Below are positions 6,267-15,623 of a DNA stretch of 42,507 bases, in pieces (positions within the stretch are counted from its first letter, which is position 1; the number at the start of each line of letters is the position of its first letter). A program made the translations under genes and the position numbers. Below the pieces are notes generated by a model. That model had not been told where the DNA came from. It did no database searches and saw only the letters and a program-made list of their open reading frames with translations. The DNA lies in the sequence record MN850583.1. One strand, given 5' to 3'. This DNA comes from Escherichia phage glasur.

Positions 6267-6782
6267 ATGGCTATTGACTTTAAATTATTCAACGCCGAGC
6301 AACTTGAAACTGTCAAGTCTCTGGCTGAGTTCATCGACAACCACCCGGAGCTGAGCGAACTGGTTGAGTTCAAGGGTGGCTACCTGCCGAAGCAAAGTTA
6401 CATCGGCGCGGTGCGTAAAGGTCGTGAAGGTATGCTGGATATTATTCCGCAGACCAGAACCGGGGCGCTGCTGGCACGCAACGTCAGCGTGCTGATTGGC
6501 ATGAACGTGAAGCGTGCCAGTGAGCAGGGCAATGCGGCTGAGGTTGAGACGCTGCGCCTGACGGGTACGCTCGCAGCTAAGGCCATGTCGGAACCGGACA
6601 TTGCCGAGCGCTATCACGACTGGTACATGGCGTGCGCTAATGTGCCAAGCGATATCAGTGAGACGACGCTGGGCCTGCTGTTCGTCGGTGAGTTCATCGA
6701 CGCAACCATCCGTGCAGTCAGCGGTCAGGTGGGTGAATTAATTCAGGCAATGCAGCAGGCCAAGAATGCAACCCGTCACTAA
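6267..6782 (+). CDS. Protein of unknown function (171 aa), last gene of the early module
   Basis: ORF track. AGGAA ribosome-binding site. Confidence 0.75.
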   Translation: MAIDFKLFNAEQLETVKSLAEFIDNHPELSELVEFKGGYLPKQSYIGAVRKGREGMLDIIPQTRTGALLARNVSVLIGMNVKRASEQGNAAEVETLRLTGTLAAKAMSEPDIAERYHDWYMACANVPSDISETTLGLLFVGEFIDATIRAVSGQVGELIQAMQQAKNATRH

Positions 6783-10272: not shown

Positions 10273-10945
10273 TGCCGAAGCTAAGCGCGTGTGGGCAGAA
10301 GATATCTGCCGTCTGCTGCAATCCGAAGAACTGAACTTCGTGGTTGCCGGGGGAGGGGCAAGGGATACCGCGCTGGGTGTTGAGCCGAAGGACTACGACA
10401 TTGTAGTCTTTGGTTGGGGTGGTGATGTGAGCCGTGTGGCTGGCCGACTGGACTGGCTGGACTCCAGACTGGAGGACTACGCCAAGCAGAACGAGCTGGC
10501 GTATGAGTACATGCCGAGCTATCACGATGCAGCAGAGGGTGGCGACTTCGGCTCCCGTCTGTGGGGTGTGTATAAGATTGGCCCGGTCGATGTGATTATC
10601 AGTAAGTGCGGGTGCTGGTCGCAGGTACTGAACGAGTTCGACTTCAACCTGAACCAGTTCTACTTCCCGTCCAGCATCCCGCGTTACTCCGGCCAGTACA
10701 GCCGCGACCCCGGCGAGTTCATGGCGTACCCGTATGAGCCGAACCTGACTGCCGAAGATGTGCAGTGGTTCCCGGCGCTGGCCAGTCTGGTAGAAAGCTA
10801 CGATGACCTGCTGACTCTCCGTGTCTGCCGACCGGATGCCAGCCTGAGTCGTGTGGCCTACATGCTGGAGAAGCACGAGAAGTATCTGCCAGCCATTGAA
10901 GCATACGTTAATCGTATGCCCGACCACTTAGGTGGCAAAGCATAG
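10262..10945 (+). CDS. Nucleotidyltransferase with Pol-beta-type head domain of the CCA-adding/poly(A) polymerase class (227 aa)
   Basis: Motif FVVAGGGARDTALGVEPKDYDIVVFG matches the GGxxRDxxLGxxxxDxD signature of class II tRNA nucleotidyltransferases. ATG at 10262 with AAGGGGA upstream, inside track ORF 10121..10945. Confidence 0.6.
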   Translation: MISNAEAKRVWAEDICRLLQSEELNFVVAGGGARDTALGVEPKDYDIVVFGWGGDVSRVAGRLDWLDSRLEDYAKQNELAYEYMPSYHDAAEGGDFGSRLWGVYKIGPVDVIISKCGCWSQVLNEFDFNLNQFYFPSSIPRYSGQYSRDPGEFMAYPYEPNLTAEDVQWFPALASLVESYDDLLTLRVCRPDASLSRVAYMLEKHEKYLPAIEAYVNRMPDHLGGKA

Positions 10946-10955
10946 CGGGGGATTG

Positions 10956-13421
10956 ATGGCTATTCGAGCACAGATTATCGACGTTGAAACTGAGAACCAC
11001 GAGTGGTATGGGGAGCTGGCATCACCTCGCTGCCCTGACAACTACGTGGTGATGCAGGGACAGCGCGACTGTGTGCTGACCAAGGATGGCTGGGAGTTCT
11101 ACAAGCGTGAGGAATATCGGTACGCATCCCGTGAGGATTGGCTGGCGAACAAGAGCCTGCACCTCCACCCGGATACGAACATACTGGTTGCACACAACGC
11201 GCCGTATGAACTGAGCTGGTGGTTCGAGCATTACGGTGATGAGTTCAAGGCGTTCCTCTTACGAGGTGGCCGTGTATTCTGTACCGCGTATGCTGAGTAT
11301 CTGCTGACACACCAGCAATCCCAGTACCCATCCTTGAACGAGACAGCACCGAAGTATGGTGGTACTCACAAGGTGGATGCAGTCAAGGCAATGTGGGAGT
11401 CAGGTTATCTGACCAGCCAGATTGACGCTGAGCTGCTGAGCGAGTATCTGTCCGGGCCGTCCGGGGATATTGAGAACACGACCAAGCTGTTCGTTGGTCA
11501 GTGGGCAGAGCTGACGAAGCAGGGCATGTTGCAGATGGCACTGACCCGCTTCGAAGGTATGCTCATGTGGGCGTACATGATGCACTCCGGTCTACACGTT
11601 GACCGTGAGGTAGCAGAGCGTAACCGCCGTGAGTTGCAGGATTCAATCAGTGGGTTAACCGAGACACTGATGGGCTACCTGCCTGCCGACATGCCAAGTG
11701 AAGCGCGTGAGCAATTCAAGTTCACGTCTGCTTATCACATGAGCGCATTCGTGTTCGGCGGCGTGATGAAGTACAAGGCGCGAGTCGAGCGCCGGGATGG
11801 AGATGGCAATCTCATTTACGTGAAGGTGGATGCACCACTGTTCAAGCGTGGCAAGGACAAGTGGCTCAAGCATACCAGCGAGTGCGAGTGGGATGATGAG
11901 ACTGGGTTGTGGTATGACCCGGTTGAGAAGGTACACCAGACCATCTACTCCAGCGGGAAGAACAAGGGTGCGCCCAAGTTCGAGAAGTTGGCGACCGATG
12001 AGGTGGACACCAAGTGGGGTGAGGTACTGTTCCGGTTGCCCGGTCTGCTGCGTGTGCAGGACAGACGAGCGCGGGAGATTGCCGACAACCTTGAATGGGA
12101 AGACCCGAAGCGTCCGGGTGAATATCTCCGGCGCACTGGTGACTGGGTAGGTAAGCGCAAGCTGGCTGACGGTTCTCCTGTATTCAGTACGGCGGGTGAG
12201 GTGCTGGACATTCTGGCAGCTCGTAAGATTCCCGGCGTCGTGGAGATTGCTGACCGGGCCAAGGCGCAGAAAGACCTCGGCACCTACTACCTCAGCGAGA
12301 CGTTTGATGATGAGGGCAACGTGACTGGCCAGTCGGGGATGATGCAGTTCATCCAGCCGGACAGCATCGTACACCACACCATCAACATGACCGCGACTGA
12401 GACGACGCGATTGTCATCTCAGCGACCGAACAGCCAGAACCTGCCACGTAAAGGTACGAGTAAAGTTAAGCAGATGTTCACCTCTCGCTTTGGCGAAGGT
12501 GGCCGCATCGTTGAGGCTGACTACTCGGCACTGGAAGTGGTGGGGCTGGCCGGGTTCAGTAAGGACAAGAACCTGATTCGTGCATTGCTCGATGGTATCG
12601 ACATGCACTGTATGCGATTGTCTGCTCAACTCAATGAGCCATACGAGGACGTGCTTAAGAAGTGCAAGGATGAATCCCATCCTGACCATGCACGATACAG
12701 TCAGATGCGTACTGACATTAAGCCCAAGGCGTTCTCCTATCAGTATGGTGCAACAGCGCGAGGCATTGCCTACTCGACTGGTTGCTCGGAGGAAGAAGCA
12801 CAGGCGTTCATCGACAACGAGAAGGGTCTGTTCCCGGAAGTTGAAGAATGGTTCGACGCTGTAATCTTCCCCGCCGTTGAGCGTAGTGGACAGAGCAACG
12901 TGTTCAAGGAACAAGATGAGAACGGACGGTGGCAGGTGTATCGCCGTGGTCACTTCCGCTCGCCGGGTGGAACTTGTTATTCATTCCGTCAGTATGAGAA
13001 ATGGAACAAGGCGGCGCGTGCTTATCTGATGGAATACAAACCAACCCAAATGCGTAACTATCCTATTCAGGGTGAGACAGCGTTTTGGGTGCAGGGAATT
13101 GGTGGGCTGCTGTTCCGCTGGCTGCTGGCCAATGACTTCTTTGGTGGGCGTGTGGTTCCCATCAACCAAGTGCATGACGCATTCTATTTCGACGTGGCAC
13201 CTGACTGTCCTCACGAGTTCTTCGTTGGACTCAAGGCAATCATGGAATCCATCCCGGAATATTACAACCACATCTGGCCTGAATATAACCTGACAGTTCC
13301 GTTTCCGGCAGAGGTAGAAGCTGGGCCAAGCATGTACGAAAAGCATCACGTAGAGACGACAGCCGAAGAAGTGCTGGAGTTCAAACGTAACTTCCTGACG
13401 AGTAAGGGTATTAGCATATGA
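10956..13421 (+). CDS. Family A DNA polymerase (T7 gp5-like) with 3'-5' exonuclease domain
   Basis: Exo I motif IIDVETEN, polymerase motif A DYSALEVVG, motif B KAFSYQYGATARG and motif C VHDAFYFD. The ATG at 10956 is preferred; the track's GTG at 10932 is possible. Confidence 0.92.
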   Translation: MAIRAQIIDVETENHEWYGELASPRCPDNYVVMQGQRDCVLTKDGWEFYKREEYRYASREDWLANKSLHLHPDTNILVAHNAPYELSWWFEHYGDEFKAFLLRGGRVFCTAYAEYLLTHQQSQYPSLNETAPKYGGTHKVDAVKAMWESGYLTSQIDAELLSEYLSGPSGDIENTTKLFVGQWAELTKQGMLQMALTRFEGMLMWAYMMHSGLHVDREVAERNRRELQDSISGLTETLMGYLPADMPSEAREQFKFTSAYHMSAFVFGGVMKYKARVERRDGDGNLIYVKVDAPLFKRGKDKWLKHTSECEWDDETGLWYDPVEKVHQTIYSSGKNKGAPKFEKLATDEVDTKWGEVLFRLPGLLRVQDRRAREIADNLEWEDPKRPGEYLRRTGDWVGKRKLADGSPVFSTAGEVLDILAARKIPGVVEIADRAKAQKDLGTYYLSETFDDEGNVTGQSGMMQFIQPDSIVHHTINMTATETTRLSSQRPNSQNLPRKGTSKVKQMFTSRFGEGGRIVEADYSALEVVGLAGFSKDKNLIRALLDGIDMHCMRLSAQLNEPYEDVLKKCKDESHPDHARYSQMRTDIKPKAFSYQYGATARGIAYSTGCSEEEAQAFIDNEKGLFPEVEEWFDAVIFPAVERSGQSNVFKEQDENGRWQVYRRGHFRSPGGTCYSFRQYEKWNKAARAYLMEYKPTQMRNYPIQGETAFWVQGIGGLLFRWLLANDFFGGRVVPINQVHDAFYFDVAPDCPHEFFVGLKAIMESIPEYYNHIWPEYNLTVPFPAEVEAGPSMYEKHHVETTAEEVLEFKRNFLTSKGISI

Positions 13422-14305
13422 CCGCATCAGTATTGAACCGCATGAACTCCATCGTCGAACAGTATGTTGACGAGGAAGAACTTGACTTTAACGAAGCCAC
13501 GTCTGGTGGTGGTAAGCTCCTGCCGGAAGGTAAGGCGCTGGCCCGTCTGGTTGGCTACGTTGAGGTGGGGCCGCACGCCACTAAGCAGGCACCGGACAAA
13601 CCGCCAGTCAACAAGTTCTTCCTCCAGTTCGCACTGTGGGGCAAGGCCAAGAACGGCGAGACTTACCACGAAGTTGTCAATGGTAAGATGGTGCCGGGCA
13701 AAGTTCGCACGCAGTTCATCGCTGTGAAGAAAGACCTGAACAGTAAGTCCGGCGCTTACAAACTGTTCAAGCGCATGAACCCGGACAAGACTGCGAAGCA
13801 CTTCGCGCAGTTGCTGAACCATACCTTCATCGTTCCGATTACCCACAACGAATCTGGTGAGGGTGAGAACAAGAAGGTGTATGCGAACATCGACCTTGAG
13901 AACATCATGCTCGCTGTTGACCCGGTAACTGACCAGCCGTACCCGGTGCCGGAAGTCGAAGACGAGACGCTGTTCAAGCTGTTCCTGTGGAACCGTCCGA
14001 CCAAGGAAGACTGGGAATCGCTGTACATCGACGGCAAGAACGACGATGGCAAATCCAAGAACTGGATTCAGGACAAGCTGCTTGAGTCTCCTGAGTTCCC
14101 CGGCTCACCTCTTGACCTGCTGCTCAATGGCGCTGGCGCTGGCTCTGCCATCGCTGAGCTGCCGGAGCTGGGCGATGTAGGCCAGCCGGAGGAAGTGAAG
14201 GAAGTTAAGCAGGAAGTCGCTGAGCTTCCGGTGAAGGGTGAAGCCGACAGCAAGAAAGAGCCGGACGTGACTGGCGAAGCTGACTTCGGTTTGCCTAGCC
14301 TGTAA
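13418..14305 (+). CDS. Protein of unknown function with acidic low-complexity C-terminus (295 aa); possible ssDNA-binding protein
   Basis: ORF track. Start overlaps the DNA polymerase stop (ATGA). Acidic tail with EADF near the C-terminus is reminiscent of T7 gp2.5; this is speculative. Confidence 0.6.
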   Translation: MTASVLNRMNSIVEQYVDEEELDFNEATSGGGKLLPEGKALARLVGYVEVGPHATKQAPDKPPVNKFFLQFALWGKAKNGETYHEVVNGKMVPGKVRTQFIAVKKDLNSKSGAYKLFKRMNPDKTAKHFAQLLNHTFIVPITHNESGEGENKKVYANIDLENIMLAVDPVTDQPYPVPEVEDETLFKLFLWNRPTKEDWESLYIDGKNDDGKSKNWIQDKLLESPEFPGSPLDLLLNGAGAGSAIAELPELGDVGQPEEVKEVKQEVAELPVKGEADSKKEPDVTGEADFGLPSL

Positions 14306-14341
14306 GACTGGTGGCCACAGGGACGTGGCCGGAGGACAACG

Positions 14342-15316
14342 ATGAGTAGACTTCAACGCTTACTCCACAATGCAGAGGAACTTGATGACCAGTTTGATGG
14401 TTACGTGTCTGGTCGTATCTTGCTGTGCGATGCTGACTCCACGGTCTACGTCGCGGCAGCAACCACGAAGAACATCGAGACAGCGAAGACACGATTCTGT
14501 TCCGGGGTACTGACCGCCAAGTTCCTCGCCAATGCTCAGTCAGTTCGTATCGAGTTGACCGCTGCGGAGTGTACGAAAGCTGGACGGTACAAGCTGCGTG
14601 GGGCCAAGCTGTACCAAGGCAACCGAGACAAAGACCGCAAGCCCGGTCTGGTCGAGCCGTTGCGTAAAGCAATTGGCCGGAACATGTTCAACGTCCCGGA
14701 TGGTGAGGACTGGTACGTCCACCTGAACTTTGAGTTCGAGGCAGACGATACCTTAATCATGGATGCGTGGACGATTGGCATTAATGATGCAGTAATCTAC
14801 AGCGCGGATAAAGACCTGCGTTGTTGGCCGGGCAGATTCCTTGACCCGTATGACAACAAGGTGCTGGAGCCGTGCGTTGGTATTGGCAGGCTGTGGTGGC
14901 ATGAAACGAAAAGCGACAAGTCGCTGGTCGGCCACGGGCCTATCTTCTTTTGGGCACAGATGTTGATGGGCGACACCGCCGACAACATCGCTGGCGTGAA
15001 GAAGGTTGGGAAGCAGACTGCTTATGATATGCTGGTTGATTATCAAGAGATTGATGATGAATCAGTGGTTGCGGAATTGGTGCTGCGTGAATACATGCAG
15101 CGTGACCAGAACCCGTGGCCGGAGGCAGTGGCGCTGTGGCTGTACCGCACGCCGACCTACTCATTCGCAGCCCACTTGAACACGCTGACCTTGAGCAAGG
15201 AGCTGCGTGTCTGGCTGCATAATAAACTGGGTGAGGAATGGTATGCGGAAAGTGACTGGCGCGACTCTGTTGCAGCTACGGAAGAATGCGATGGGTTGCA
15301 ACTGCCCACTCTGTGA
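14342..15316 (+). CDS. 5'-3' exonuclease (FEN/T7 gp6-like)
   Basis: H3TH-type motif GDTADNIAGVKKVG and acidic clusters. Good GGAGGA ribosome-binding site. Confidence 0.85.
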   Translation: MSRLQRLLHNAEELDDQFDGYVSGRILLCDADSTVYVAAATTKNIETAKTRFCSGVLTAKFLANAQSVRIELTAAECTKAGRYKLRGAKLYQGNRDKDRKPGLVEPLRKAIGRNMFNVPDGEDWYVHLNFEFEADDTLIMDAWTIGINDAVIYSADKDLRCWPGRFLDPYDNKVLEPCVGIGRLWWHETKSDKSLVGHGPIFFWAQMLMGDTADNIAGVKKVGKQTAYDMLVDYQEIDDESVVAELVLREYMQRDQNPWPEAVALWLYRTPTYSFAAHLNTLTLSKELRVWLHNKLGEEWYAESDWRDSVAATEECDGLQLPTL

Positions 15317-15623
15317 TGAGCCGATGGTTGACCTCAAGCTCATGGTGGTTGACCACGACCATGTGACTGGGGAGATTCGCGGTGTCATCTGCCGCTGGTG
15401 TAATGCTCAGCTCGGTAAGGTGGAGAACTCTGCCAACCGAGCGAAGCGCCAGCGCACAGTGGATGACTGGTTGGATAGCGCCATCGAGTGGCGACGTAAG
15501 CAGCACACTGGTCTGATGTATCCGACACATAAGACAGAGGCTGAGAAGAAAGCGGCGGCAGCCGATAGACGTAAAAAGGCAGCAGCAGCTAAAGCGCGTG
15601 CCGTAATCACTAAGGGGAAATGA
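15243..15623 (+). CDS. Endonuclease VII-type Holliday junction resolvase
   Basis: CNCPLCDEP...DHDHVTGEIRGVICRWCN zinc-binding catalytic signature of the T4 endonuclease VII family. The ATG at 15243 (GAGGAA upstream) is preferred over the track's GTG at 15207 and overlaps the exonuclease gene end. Confidence 0.7.
   Translation: MRKVTGATLLQLRKNAMGCNCPLCDEPMVDLKLMVVDHDHVTGEIRGVICRWCNAQLGKVENSANRAKRQRTVDDWLDSAIEWRRKQHTGLMYPTHKTEAEKKAAAADRRKKAAAAKARAVITKGK

What the first reader, a model, noticed from the sequence alone, without database searches (positions are those of the whole stretch)
13418..14305. Protein after the DNA polymerase with acidic tail containing EADF, possibly a gp2.5-like single-stranded DNA-binding protein
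No obvious ssDNA-binding protein was recognised elsewhere. This 295-aa protein ends in a long acidic low-complexity tail with an aromatic residue near the end (...GEADFGLPSL), reminiscent of the acidic C-terminal tails of T7 gp2.5 and gp4 that dock on the DNA polymerase. Its start overlaps the polymerase stop (ATGA), implying coupled expression.
Basis: inference. Interest (0 to 1): 0.35.

Follow-up and report, generated by a model that had tools for sequence, protein, structure and literature searches.

The report
Likely phage single-stranded DNA-binding protein
The gene after the DNA polymerase most likely encodes this phage group's missing single-stranded-DNA-binding protein, but it belongs to an uncharacterised family (that of LUZ19 Gp21) and not to the T7 gp2.5 family.

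Summary
ORF 13418-14305 (+) encodes 295 aa, its ATG overlaps the polymerase stop (ATGA), and it ends in a net-acidic disordered tail, ...GEADFGLPSL.

The window is about 99.7% identical in this protein to Escherichia phage usur (Bonnellvirus, Autographiviridae), where the gene is annotated 'hypothetical'. The protein belongs to phrog_862 (function unknown). That family includes Pseudomonas phage LUZ19 Gp21, a very abundant, toxic late-early protein of unknown function.

AlphaFold2 gives four parts:
- an acidic N-terminal helix;
- a basic domain with OB-fold strand order (residues 33-165, pLDDT 91);
- a family-specific conserved sub-domain (166-236);
- a disordered tail.

Foldseek returns almost only SSB, PriB and RPA OB-fold proteins, but the scores are marginal. 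Phage DUF669 models match at E about 1e-5.

No sequence or profile similarity to T7 gp2.5, N4 SSB or E. coli SSB was found, and the genome contains no homologue of any of the three.

The strongest new evidence comes from orthologues at the same locus. Nine to 13 of 211 family representatives end in the canonical bacterial SSB tip, and one ends in DFDDDIPF, identical to the E. coli SSB C-terminus.

Verdict: probable replicative SSB (about 0.7). It is a functional analogue of gp2.5, not a member of its family. No biochemistry exists for this family.

The parts
13418..14305 (+). Gene for the 295-aa protein (orthologue of usur_29 and LUZ19 gp21; phrog_862)
   Evidence: ORF. 99.7% identical to Escherichia phage usur. 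phrog_862 at E 7.7e-77. 35% identical to LUZ19 gp21, E 5e-39.
13404..13421 (+). Translation start region: AAGGG Shine-Dalgarno-like motif (13404-13408) and the ATGA overlap with the DNA polymerase stop (13418-13421)
   Evidence: Sequence. Coupled translation is inferred, not shown.
13418..13513 (+). Residues 1-32: acidic amphipathic N-terminal helix (5-20) followed by a Gly-rich linker (SGGG)
   Evidence: AF2 helix 5-20 with pLDDT 73-79; linker residues 27-31 fall below 50. pI 4.05. Family consensus is M...L....ALA....E....DM.EA..GGGG.
13514..13912 (+). Residues 33-165: basic domain with OB-fold strand order (b1 38-53, b2 64-74, b3 85-103, helix 112-120, b4 136-146, b5 153-158)
   Evidence: AF2 model of this domain alone: pLDDT 90.7, pTM 0.82. 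pI 9.76. Foldseek top hits are SSB, PriB and RPA.
13913..14125 (+). Residues 166-236: family-specific conserved sub-domain holding most invariant residues (F189, W191, W199, G211-K-S-K-N215, Q218, G229-S230, L236)
   Evidence: Conservation. AF2 pLDDT 84-94. No structural or family assignment. Only a weak profile match to ribosomal protein eL24, E 0.035.
14126..14281 (+). Residues 237-288: disordered, net-acidic low-complexity linker
   Evidence: pLDDT 33-43. Composition. Length and composition vary widely across the family: 18-196 aa, acidic or Pro/Ala/Val-rich.
14282..14302 (+). Residues 289-295: C-terminal tip D-F-G-L-P-S-L, a putative docking motif
   Evidence: F.LP[STA][LIV]$ is conserved in 14 of 211 family representatives, the Bonnellvirus/LIMEzero clade. 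P293 is at least 90% conserved in alignment A1.
10932..13421 (+). Context: family A DNA polymerase immediately upstream (the annotated start in phage usur corresponds to 10956)
14342..15316 (+). Context: 5'-3' exonuclease immediately downstream, followed by endonuclease VII (up to 15623)
   Evidence: phrog_107 'exonuclease', E 9e-59. Annotation of phage usur.

Best explanation
The gene encodes the replicative single-stranded-DNA-binding protein of this phiKMV-like (Bonnellvirus) phage.

Proposed mechanism (all steps inferred):
- The basic OB-like domain (residues 33-165) coats ssDNA exposed at the fork and at recombination intermediates.
- The conserved sub-domain (166-236), and possibly the N-terminal helix, mediate self-association or extend the DNA-binding surface.
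- The disordered acidic tail holds the protein off DNA or in solution until needed.
- The short C-terminal tip (DFGLPSL) docks on partner proteins, most plausibly the phage DNA polymerase, the helicase or the neighbouring exonuclease.

This would be the role T7 gp2.5 plays, carried out by an unrelated or very distantly related protein family.

Shown here: gene, family, predicted fold class, domain charges, tail disorder, tip motifs, synteny, and the absence of other SSB families from the genome.

Inferred: ssDNA binding, the partners of the tip, and the role of the sub-domain.
For: 1. Fold. AF2 gives b1-b2-b3-helix-b4-b5 order with high confidence. Nearly all of the top 50 PDB neighbours in two searches are OB-fold ssDNA binders: bacterial and mitochondrial SSB, PriB, RPA and editosome OB proteins. 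The best is 4dam at E 5.8e-4, probability 0.97.

2. Viral structure library. Predicted structures of DUF669 proteins match at E 2.4e-5 to 5.7e-5, and a 'single stranded DNA binding protein' model matches at 6e-5. DUF669 and N4 SSB are divergent OB-fold SSBs (PMC4889955). The HK620 protein assigned to DUF669 binds ssDNA in vitro (PMC5928155).

3. Charge layout typical of SSBs. The OB domain has pI 9.8 and the tail pI 4.1.

4. Tips on orthologues. Among 211 family representatives, 9 (strict pattern) to 13 (loose pattern) end in the bacterial SSB tip (DDDIPF, DDIPY, DDDIPW, DVPF). P0193 ends in DFDDDIPF, identical to the last 8 residues of E. coli SSB. By my rough estimate, fewer than 0.02 such endings are expected by chance. 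P0193 is encoded directly after a family A DNA polymerase and before an endonuclease VII gene, the same locus as here. These members are scattered among clades.

5. Context. The gene lies between the DNA polymerase and the exonuclease/endonuclease VII pair here and in LUZ19; in a KP34-like Klebsiella phage several small genes separate it from both.

6. Complementary distribution. The whole T7 genome has gp2.5 and no member of this family. The window, phage usur, LUZ19 and the KP34-like locus have this family and no gp2.5 or N4-type SSB.

7. Abundance. [quoted passage not shown] That fits a protein needed in stoichiometric amounts.

8. Existing annotation. At least two recent GenBank records among those listed already call the orthologue 'single strand DNA binding protein'.
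Against: - The structural matches are individually weak: E 6e-4 to 0.3, TM-scores 0.25-0.47, rmsd 6-9 A. The OB assignment rests on the consistency of the hit list and on strand order, not on one strong match.
- No sequence or profile link to any characterised SSB family was found.
- This protein's own tip (DFGLPSL) is not a known SSB tip.
- The most conserved part of the family (residues 166-236) has no assigned function.
- Induced LUZ19 Gp21 lowered host transcription and translation by 20-25% but left thymidine incorporation unaffected (PMC3604761). That neither supports nor excludes an SSB.
- No member of the family has been tested for DNA binding.
Confidence: 0.7

Rival explanations
1. 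It is a true, divergent homologue of T7 gp2.5 (PF21265/DUF2815 family). It would bind ssDNA and dock on the polymerase through an acidic tail with an aromatic residue.
For: - Same virus family (Autographiviridae), and the genome has no gp2.5.
- OB-fold strand order with a helix between b3 and b4.
- Net-acidic tail containing one Phe.
Against: - None of 209 family members matches PF21265, even at E up to 10, whereas all 120 listed gp2.5 relatives carry it.
- hhalign of the two family alignments gives E 0.69.
- gp2.5 (1JE5) is absent from the top 50 structural hits of both PDB searches.
- The C-terminal residue is Leu, not an aromatic.
- The acidic tail is not conserved across the family.
- gp2.5 has no counterpart of the conserved 166-236 sub-domain.
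Confidence: 0.08
2. It is mainly a recombination protein: a single-strand annealing or mediator partner of the downstream 5'-3' exonuclease, like the lambda Exo/Beta pair. It would not be the replicative SSB.
For: - It lies immediately upstream of the exonuclease and endonuclease VII genes here, in LUZ19 and on contig L089.
- T7 gp2.5 and the HK620 SSB both take part in annealing (annotation; PMC5928155).
Against: - No Rad52, Red-beta, ERF or Sak4-type fold or family appears in any search.
- The structural neighbours are SSBs, not annealases.
- The genome would then lack any SSB.
- The two roles do not exclude each other.
Confidence: 0.1
3. Its main role is host takeover or regulation. It would be a toxic protein that interferes with host transcription or translation, or an N4-SSB-like activator or regulator of transcription. 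The OB-like fold would serve RNA or protein binding.
For: - Induced LUZ19 Gp21 stops P. aeruginosa growth at once and lowers transcription and translation by 20-25% without lowering DNA synthesis (PMC3604761).
- N4 SSB doubles as an activator of host RNA polymerase (reference cited in PMC3604761).
- The sub-domain gives a weak profile match to rRNA-binding ribosomal protein eL24, E 0.035.
Against: - Toxicity is expected when any abundant nucleic-acid binder is over-produced.
- The gene sits in the replication module, not among the early host-takeover genes.
- Bacterial SSB tips on orthologues point to replication and repair partners.
- The eL24 match is not significant.
Confidence: 0.08
4. It is an accessory or processivity subunit of the phage DNA polymerase, translationally coupled to it, and not a free SSB.
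For: - ATGA overlap with the polymerase gene here and on L089.
- No processivity factor was identified for these polymerases in the annotations seen here.
Against: - In LUZ19 and KP34-like phages the gene is separated from the polymerase gene. In LUZ19 it has its own promoter.
- Its very high abundance in LUZ19 (PMC3604761) does not fit a 1:1 polymerase subunit.
- Start/stop overlaps occur between several other neighbouring genes in this genome.
Confidence: 0.04

Closest known systems
LUZ19 Gp21 / phrog_862 / NCBI PHA02030 (conserved hypothetical protein of phiKMV-like, KP34-like and Fri1-like podophages)
   Same: True homologue: 35% identity, E 5e-39, and the same PHROG. Same place in the replication module, upstream of the exonuclease and endonuclease VII genes. 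Same layout of core plus long low-complexity tail.
   Different: The LUZ19 protein has a Pro/Val/Ala-rich tail ending in ...VPAVPQV and its own phage promoter. Here the tail is acidic, ends in DFGLPSL, and the gene overlaps the polymerase stop. The function of Gp21 is unknown; only its abundance and toxicity have been reported (PMC3604761).
T7 gp2.5 (PF21265; PDB 1JE5)
   Same: Probably the same job in a related virus family. Shares an OB-type core and an acidic C-terminal tail used for docking. It is essential for replication and recombination in T7 (annotation). The two families replace each other in the genomes checked.
   Different: - No sequence, profile or top-ranked structural similarity.
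- gp2.5 ends in a C-terminal Phe; here F290 is sixth from the end.
- gp2.5 lacks the N-terminal helix and the 166-236 sub-domain.
- Different genome position: gene 2.5 lies well upstream of the polymerase gene in T7.
N4 SSB and HK620 SSB (Pfam DUF669 group; divergent OB-fold phage SSBs)
   Same: Closest annotated structural neighbours in the viral library: DUF669 models at E 2e-5 to 6e-5 with TM 0.5-0.55 on the target. Similar size. Like this family, they are undetectable as OB folds by sequence (PMC4889955). The N-terminus of N4 SSB also reads as a short helix-like stretch, then GGG, then the first strand (sequence; my reading).
   Different: No profile-profile link could be shown. My control comparison, N4 against HK620, was itself barely detectable (E 0.023), so that test is weak. 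Those SSBs usually sit next to a Sak4 recombinase gene (PMC5928155). No such gene is annotated here.
E. coli-type SSB (PF00436)
   Same: Top PDB structural neighbours. Same three-part logic of OB core, disordered linker and short tip. Nine to 13 of 211 family members carry the very tip of bacterial SSB, D-D-D-I-P-F.
   Different: No Pfam match. Low TM-scores (0.47 or less). The OB strands are much longer, and there is an extra N-terminal helix and C-terminal sub-domain. This protein's own tip is DFGLPSL.

Membership tests
phrog_862 / PHA02030 (LUZ19 Gp21 family) | Significant match to the family profile over most of its length | tested here: met
   E 7.7e-77, residues 6-275 on profile positions 4-261 of 276. 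LUZ19 gp21 and the KP34-like orthologue hit the same PHROG.
phrog_862 / PHA02030 (LUZ19 Gp21 family) | Pairwise homology to LUZ19 Gp21 | tested here: met
   BLASTP: 35% identity over 219 residues, E 5e-39.
phrog_862 / PHA02030 (LUZ19 Gp21 family) | Location in the replication module between the DNA polymerase and the exonuclease/endonuclease VII genes | tested here: met
   Window, phage usur, LUZ19, metagenomic contig L089. In the KP34-like phage several small genes intervene.
T7 gp2.5 family (Pfam PF21265 / DUF2815) | Match to Pfam PF21265 | tested here: not met
   No hit for the protein at E up to 1, nor for 69 + 140 family members at E up to 10. Positive control: all 120 listed gp2.5 relatives carry PF21265.
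T7 gp2.5 family (Pfam PF21265 / DUF2815) | Profile-profile similarity to a gp2.5 alignment | tested here: not met
   hhalign E 0.68 and 0.69, probability below 0.1%. The alignments have low diversity, so a very remote link is not excluded.
T7 gp2.5 family (Pfam PF21265 / DUF2815) | Acidic C-terminal tail ending in an aromatic residue (F232 in gp2.5) | tested here: not met
   The tail is net acidic (14 D/E against 5 K/R), but the last residue is Leu and the only aromatic, F290, is sixth from the end.
T7 gp2.5 family (Pfam PF21265 / DUF2815) | Structural similarity to the gp2.5 crystal structure (1JE5) | tested here: inconclusive
   1JE5 is not among the 50 best PDB matches listed for either the full model or the OB-only model. 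Lower ranks are not shown, and no direct superposition was possible.
T7 gp2.5 family (Pfam PF21265 / DUF2815) | ssDNA binding, homodimer, binding to the polymerase and helicase through the tail | not testable with these tools
   Needs biochemistry.
N4 SSB / DUF669 group | Sequence or profile similarity to N4 SSB or the HK620 SSB | tested here: inconclusive
   hhalign E 0.25-0.41, and the N4 HMM finds nothing in the window. The control comparison N4 against HK620 reached only E 0.023, so the test has little power.
N4 SSB / DUF669 group | Structural similarity to DUF669 proteins | tested here: met
   Foldseek against BFVD: DUF669 models at E 2.4e-5 and 5.7e-5, probability 1.00, TM on target 0.53-0.55. 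Both sides are predicted models.
N4 SSB / DUF669 group | Neighbouring Sak4-type recombinase gene (frequent, not universal) | tested here: inconclusive
   No such gene is annotated in phage usur, and none appeared among the 10 neighbouring proteins scanned. No dedicated Sak4 search was run.
Bacterial SSB (Pfam PF00436) | Match to the SSB Pfam model | tested here: not met
   No hit. tblastn with E. coli SSB against the window gave E of 0.88 or worse.
Bacterial SSB (Pfam PF00436) | OB fold superposable on SSB | tested here: inconclusive
   SSB, PriB and RPA dominate both hit lists, but with E 6e-4 to 0.3 and TM 0.25-0.47.
Bacterial SSB (Pfam PF00436) | Disordered linker ending in the acidic tip D-D-D-I-P-F | tested here: not met
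   This protein ends in DFGLPSL. The feature is met by 9-13 of 211 other family representatives, for example P0193 ending in ...DFDDDIPF.

The most novel reading that the evidence does not exclude
phrog_862 is a distinct, widespread phage SSB family (at least 1,278 clusters at 50% identity). Its C-terminal tip would be an exchangeable address label.
- Some lineages carry an exact copy of the host SSB tip (DDDIPF). That tip could recruit the host's SSB-binding replication and repair proteins, or compete for them.
- Other lineages carry tips not described before: F-x-L-P-S-L here, LPKV, and DPLAG/LAxLGL. These would dock on phage-specific partners, or on another host hub such as the beta clamp. 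I recall DFGLPSL as loosely resembling Hda's QLSLPL clamp motif; this was not tested.

The invariant 166-236 sub-domain would be a new DNA-binding or oligomerisation module added to a divergent OB fold.
Probability: 0.3. Interest if true: 0.55.

Novelty: new member of a known kind. Interest (0 to 1): 0.4.

Why it matters
phiKMV-like, KP34-like and Fri1-like podophages are among the phages most used in therapy work against Pseudomonas, Klebsiella and Acinetobacter. In most of the 40 database records listed here this gene is annotated as hypothetical, and in two as 'large tegument protein'.

Assigning it as the SSB would have three consequences.
- It would complete the minimal replisome of these phages: helicase, primase, polymerase and SSB.
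- It would offer an explanation for the abundance and toxicity of LUZ19 Gp21.
- It would add another phage SSB family to those that could be examined as possible triggers of bacterial defence systems or as possible recombineering and amplification reagents (my suggestion, not tested here).

The variety of tips on one conserved core is a natural experiment. It shows how an SSB can be rewired to different partner proteins.

Tried and rejected
- Sequence searches against Pfam found nothing informative.
- Searches of PDB sequences with the single protein and with two profiles found nothing significant.
- hhalign against T7 gp2.5, N4 SSB and HK620 SSB, as single sequences and as family alignments, gave no significant similarity. 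The N4-against-HK620 control shows these local comparisons lack power.
- Building a diverse DUF669 alignment from HK620 SSB failed. The viral-contig scan returned only relatives 87-100% identical, and HK620 SSB itself does not hit Pfam in this copy.
- The OB-only model did not improve the PDB matches. E-values became slightly worse and the hit list stayed the same.
- The annotations 'large tegument protein' and 'Fe-S oxidoreductase' on homologues are rejected. I attribute them to low-complexity tail matches.
- The hairpin at 14313-14331, between this gene and the exonuclease gene, is no more stable than shuffled sequence (z = -0.37).
- No sigma-70-like promoter lies near the gene, and the one terminator-like site found (inside the polymerase gene) is within chance expectation.
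- Literature searches found no paper characterising this family as an SSB.
Full report
**Observation.** The ORF at 13418-14305 on the + strand exists and encodes 295 aa. Its ATG shares the tetranucleotide ATGA with the stop codon of the upstream 829-aa family A DNA polymerase ORF, which ends at 13421. An AAGGG motif lies 9 nt upstream. The last 59 residues hold 14 acidic and 5 basic residues (pI 4.1). They contain a single aromatic residue, F290, sixth from the end in the motif D-F-G-L-P-S-L. Only about 1% of 59-aa windows in the long + strand reading frames of the window are as acidic. Start/stop overlaps occur between several other neighbouring genes in this genome. The overlap therefore suggests, but does not single out, co-expression with the polymerase.

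**Identity of the window and the gene.** The protein is 99.7% identical to a 'hypothetical protein' (usur_29) of Escherichia phage usur, genus Bonnellvirus, family Autographiviridae. The gene order around it is primase, helicase, nucleotidyltransferase, DNA polymerase, this gene, 5'-3' exonuclease, endonuclease VII, Mre11-like phosphoesterase, polynucleotide kinase, RNA polymerase.

- tblastn finds relatives in 1,017 phage records. They are mostly phiKMV-like Pseudomonas phages, KP34-like Klebsiella phages, Fri1-like Acinetobacter phages, and Pectobacterium, Xanthomonas, Vibrio and Ralstonia podophages.
- A profile search of 1.84 billion representative proteins finds 1,278 clusters at E of 0.001 or better.
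- The family is phrog_862, 'unknown function' (E 7.7e-77). It has no Pfam model: none of 209 members hits anything consistent.
- Most of the 40 listed records call it hypothetical. Two call it 'large tegument protein', which I take to be an artefact of the low-complexity tail. At least two recent records call it 'single strand DNA binding protein'. That name does not come from the PHROG HMM, because the same protein also falls in phrog_862.

**Link to the literature.** LUZ19 gp21 is a homologue: 35% identity, E 5e-39, same PHROG, and the same position just before the exonuclease and endonuclease VII genes. Lavigne et al. 2013 (PMC3604761) reported four things about Gp21.
- It is one of the two most abundant early and late-early LUZ19 proteins.
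- It is conserved (PHA02030) and of unknown function.
- Single-copy expression stops P. aeruginosa growth immediately.
- It lowers transcription and translation by 20-25% without affecting thymidine incorporation.

I found no later paper assigning a function.

**Structure.** AlphaFold2 with 69 sequences gives a confident core (pLDDT 84-97 for residues 33-240). The tail, residues 240-295, is fully disordered (pLDDT 33-43). The order of elements is:
- helix 5-20, then a Gly-rich linker;
- strands 38-53, 64-74 and 85-103;
- helices 112-120 and 129-132;
- strands 136-146 and 153-158.

This is the b1-b2-b3-helix-b4-b5 order of an OB fold. A further sub-domain (166-236) follows and carries most of the invariant residues: F189, W191, W199, G211-K-S-K-N215, Q218, G229-S230. 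Modelled alone, residues 33-165 reach pLDDT 90.7 and pTM 0.82. That domain is basic (pI 9.8), while the N-terminal helix, the sub-domain and the tail are all acidic (pI about 4.1).

**Structural neighbours.** Nearly all of the top 50 Foldseek matches in the PDB are OB-fold ssDNA binders, for both the full model and the OB-only model. They include bacterial, mitochondrial and Plasmodium SSBs, PriB, RPA, editosome OB proteins and lactococcal phage p2 SSB. Each match is weak on its own: best E 5.8e-4 (4dam, probability 0.97), TM-scores 0.25-0.47, rmsd 6-9 A. T7 gp2.5 is not in either top-50 list. Against predicted viral structures, the strong hits after the family itself (E down to 7e-25) are mostly unnamed or uncharacterised. 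DUF669 proteins match at E 2.4e-5 and 5.7e-5 (TM on target 0.53-0.55), and a 'single stranded DNA binding protein' model matches at 6e-5. Kazlauskas et al. 2016 (PMC4889955) linked the experimentally characterised N4 SSB to DUF669 and argued that both are highly evolved OB folds. Hutinet et al. 2018 (PMC5928155) showed that the HK620 protein they assign to DUF669 is an SSB in vitro. I read the fold evidence as consistent with a divergent OB-type SSB, possibly a distant branch of that group, but not as proof.

**Tests of family membership by sequence.** Nothing links the family to gp2.5, N4 SSB, HK620 SSB or E. coli SSB.
- There are no Pfam hits, whereas all 120 listed gp2.5 relatives carry PF21265.
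- hhalign E-values are 0.25-0.7.
- Profile searches of PDB sequences find nothing significant.
- My own control, N4 SSB family against HK620 SSB, reached only E 0.023. The negative result for DUF669/N4 is therefore weak. The negative result for the Pfam gp2.5 model is solid.

**The tails and tips.** I aligned 211 family representatives and cut each after the position equivalent to L236.
- Tails are 18-196 aa long (median 72).
- They are net acidic in 95 members, Pro/Ala/Val-rich in 71, and mixed in 45.
- What recurs is a short motif at the very end, and it falls into classes. F-x-L-P-[STA]-[LIV] occurs in 14 (this protein, its Bonnellvirus relatives and Pantoea phage LIMEzero). LPK[VI] occurs in 10. 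DPLAG or LAxLGL occurs in 24.
- Nine (strict pattern) to 13 (loose pattern) end in the canonical bacterial SSB tip: ...DDDIPF, ...DDIPY, ...DDDIPW, ...DVPF. P0193 ends in DFDDDIPF, which equals the last eight residues of E. coli SSB (MDFDDDIPF; established knowledge). By my rough estimate from residue frequencies, fewer than 0.02 such endings would occur by chance in 211 sequences.
- P0193 is encoded directly after a family A DNA polymerase gene, with the same kind of overlap. A 346-aa gene and an endonuclease VII gene follow it. It is therefore a positional orthologue of the window gene.
- The SSB-tipped members share only 30-52% core identity with each other. Their nearest relatives mostly carry other tips. 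Tips have therefore been gained, lost or swapped repeatedly.

An OB-like basic core followed by a disordered linker and an SSB tip is the defining layout of bacterial SSBs. I regard this as the strongest single argument that the family consists of SSBs.

**Complementary distribution.** HMMs built from the three family alignments were run on six-frame translations. The complete T7 genome contains gp2.5 and no phrog_862 member. The window (a whole genome of this phage type), phage usur, and the LUZ19 and KP34-like replication regions contain phrog_862 and no gp2.5 or N4-type SSB. tblastn with gp2.5, N4 SSB and E. coli SSB finds nothing in the window. Ten other early or middle proteins gave no SSB family. 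This covers only a handful of genomes and is not a census.

**Most likely mechanism.** The protein is the phage's replicative SSB (confidence about 0.7). The steps below are inferred.
- The basic OB-like domain binds ssDNA.
- The conserved sub-domain, with two near-invariant Trp and the GKSKN motif, either extends the binding surface or mediates oligomerisation and cooperativity.
- The acidic tail competes with DNA for the basic surface and keeps the tip available.
- The tip docks on partners.

Because the tip here (DFGLPSL) differs from that of E. coli SSB, the host's own SSB, its partner is more likely a phage protein (polymerase, helicase or exonuclease) than the host SSB interactome. In the DDDIPF-tipped relatives the host interactome is the obvious target. 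Over-production toxicity of LUZ19 Gp21 is compatible with a promiscuous nucleic-acid binder but does not prove it.

**Rivals.**
- True gp2.5 homology: about 0.08.
- Primary role as annealing partner of the exonuclease: about 0.1; not exclusive of an SSB role.
- Host-takeover or transcription factor role: about 0.08.
- Polymerase accessory subunit: about 0.04.

**Novelty and verdict.** The kind of protein is well known: an OB-fold SSB with a disordered tail and a docking tip. The family is known as a conserved hypothetical, and a few automated annotations already call it an SSB. What is not established is any experimental function. The tip classes, including exact mimicry of the host SSB tip in scattered lineages, do not appear in the literature I could search. 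I rate it a new member of a known kind, of moderate interest (0.4). The gp2.5 family label is not.

Noticed in passing
window 13964-14137 (residues 183-240); PDB chain 7oyc_W1: A profile of 140 family members gives a weak match (E 0.035) between the conserved sub-domain (PTKExWDSL...GKSKN.IQ...GSPL) and ribosomal protein eL24, deposited as 'TRASH domain-containing protein'. eL24 is an rRNA-binding protein. The match is probably chance, but it is the only hint about this sub-domain.
   Followed up: no
related proteins P0077-P0215 (alignment A3): Besides phrog_862, 73 of 140 diverse members also hit phrog_6599 and 52 hit phrog_2544. Both are of unknown function and are probably sister families in other phage groups. 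Xanthomonas phage Xp10 37L is a structural relative at E 6e-12.
   Followed up: partly
related proteins, e.g. P0162, P0178, P0183, P0205: A third recurrent tip class, D-P-L-A-G-[LIV] or L-A-x-L-G-L, occurs in 24 of 211 representatives. P0183 carries both DPLADLAG and a terminal DDDIPF. I recall no known motif like it.
   Followed up: partly
L008 4484-5068 (-) and L005 6322-7116 (+): The HK620 SSB ends in ...NDYPPF, reminiscent of the bacterial ...IPF tip. N4 SSB ends in a basic ...SLFGKK. Neither protein hits any Pfam model in this copy of Pfam, although the literature places HK620 SSB in DUF669.
   Followed up: no
window 14313-14331: A GGCCAC-N6-GTGGCC hairpin sits between this gene and the exonuclease gene, just before the GGAGG ribosome-binding site. 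It is no more stable than shuffled controls (z = -0.37).
   Followed up: yes
window 6267-6782 (+): A 171-aa early-region ORF (usur_39 equivalent) has no PHROG match at E of 0.001 or better. It was the only one of ten proteins scanned with no family.
   Followed up: no
window 10932-10956 and 15207-15324: The mechanical ORF list starts the DNA polymerase at GTG 10932 and the endonuclease VII at GTG 15207. The phage usur annotation corresponds to starts at 10956 and 15324. The true starts are unverified.
   Followed up: no
whole window vs MN850624: The window (42,507 bp) is about 600 bp longer than the phage usur record (41,906 bp) and runs in the opposite orientation. The extra length could be terminal repeat sequence missing from the record, or a different isolate.
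   Followed up: no
L004 5414-5433 (LUZ19): LUZ19 has an annotated phage-specific promoter directly upstream of gp21 and an extra small gene (gp20) between the polymerase gene and gp21. In the window the gene abuts the polymerase gene. The family is expressed through different arrangements in different genera.
   Followed up: no
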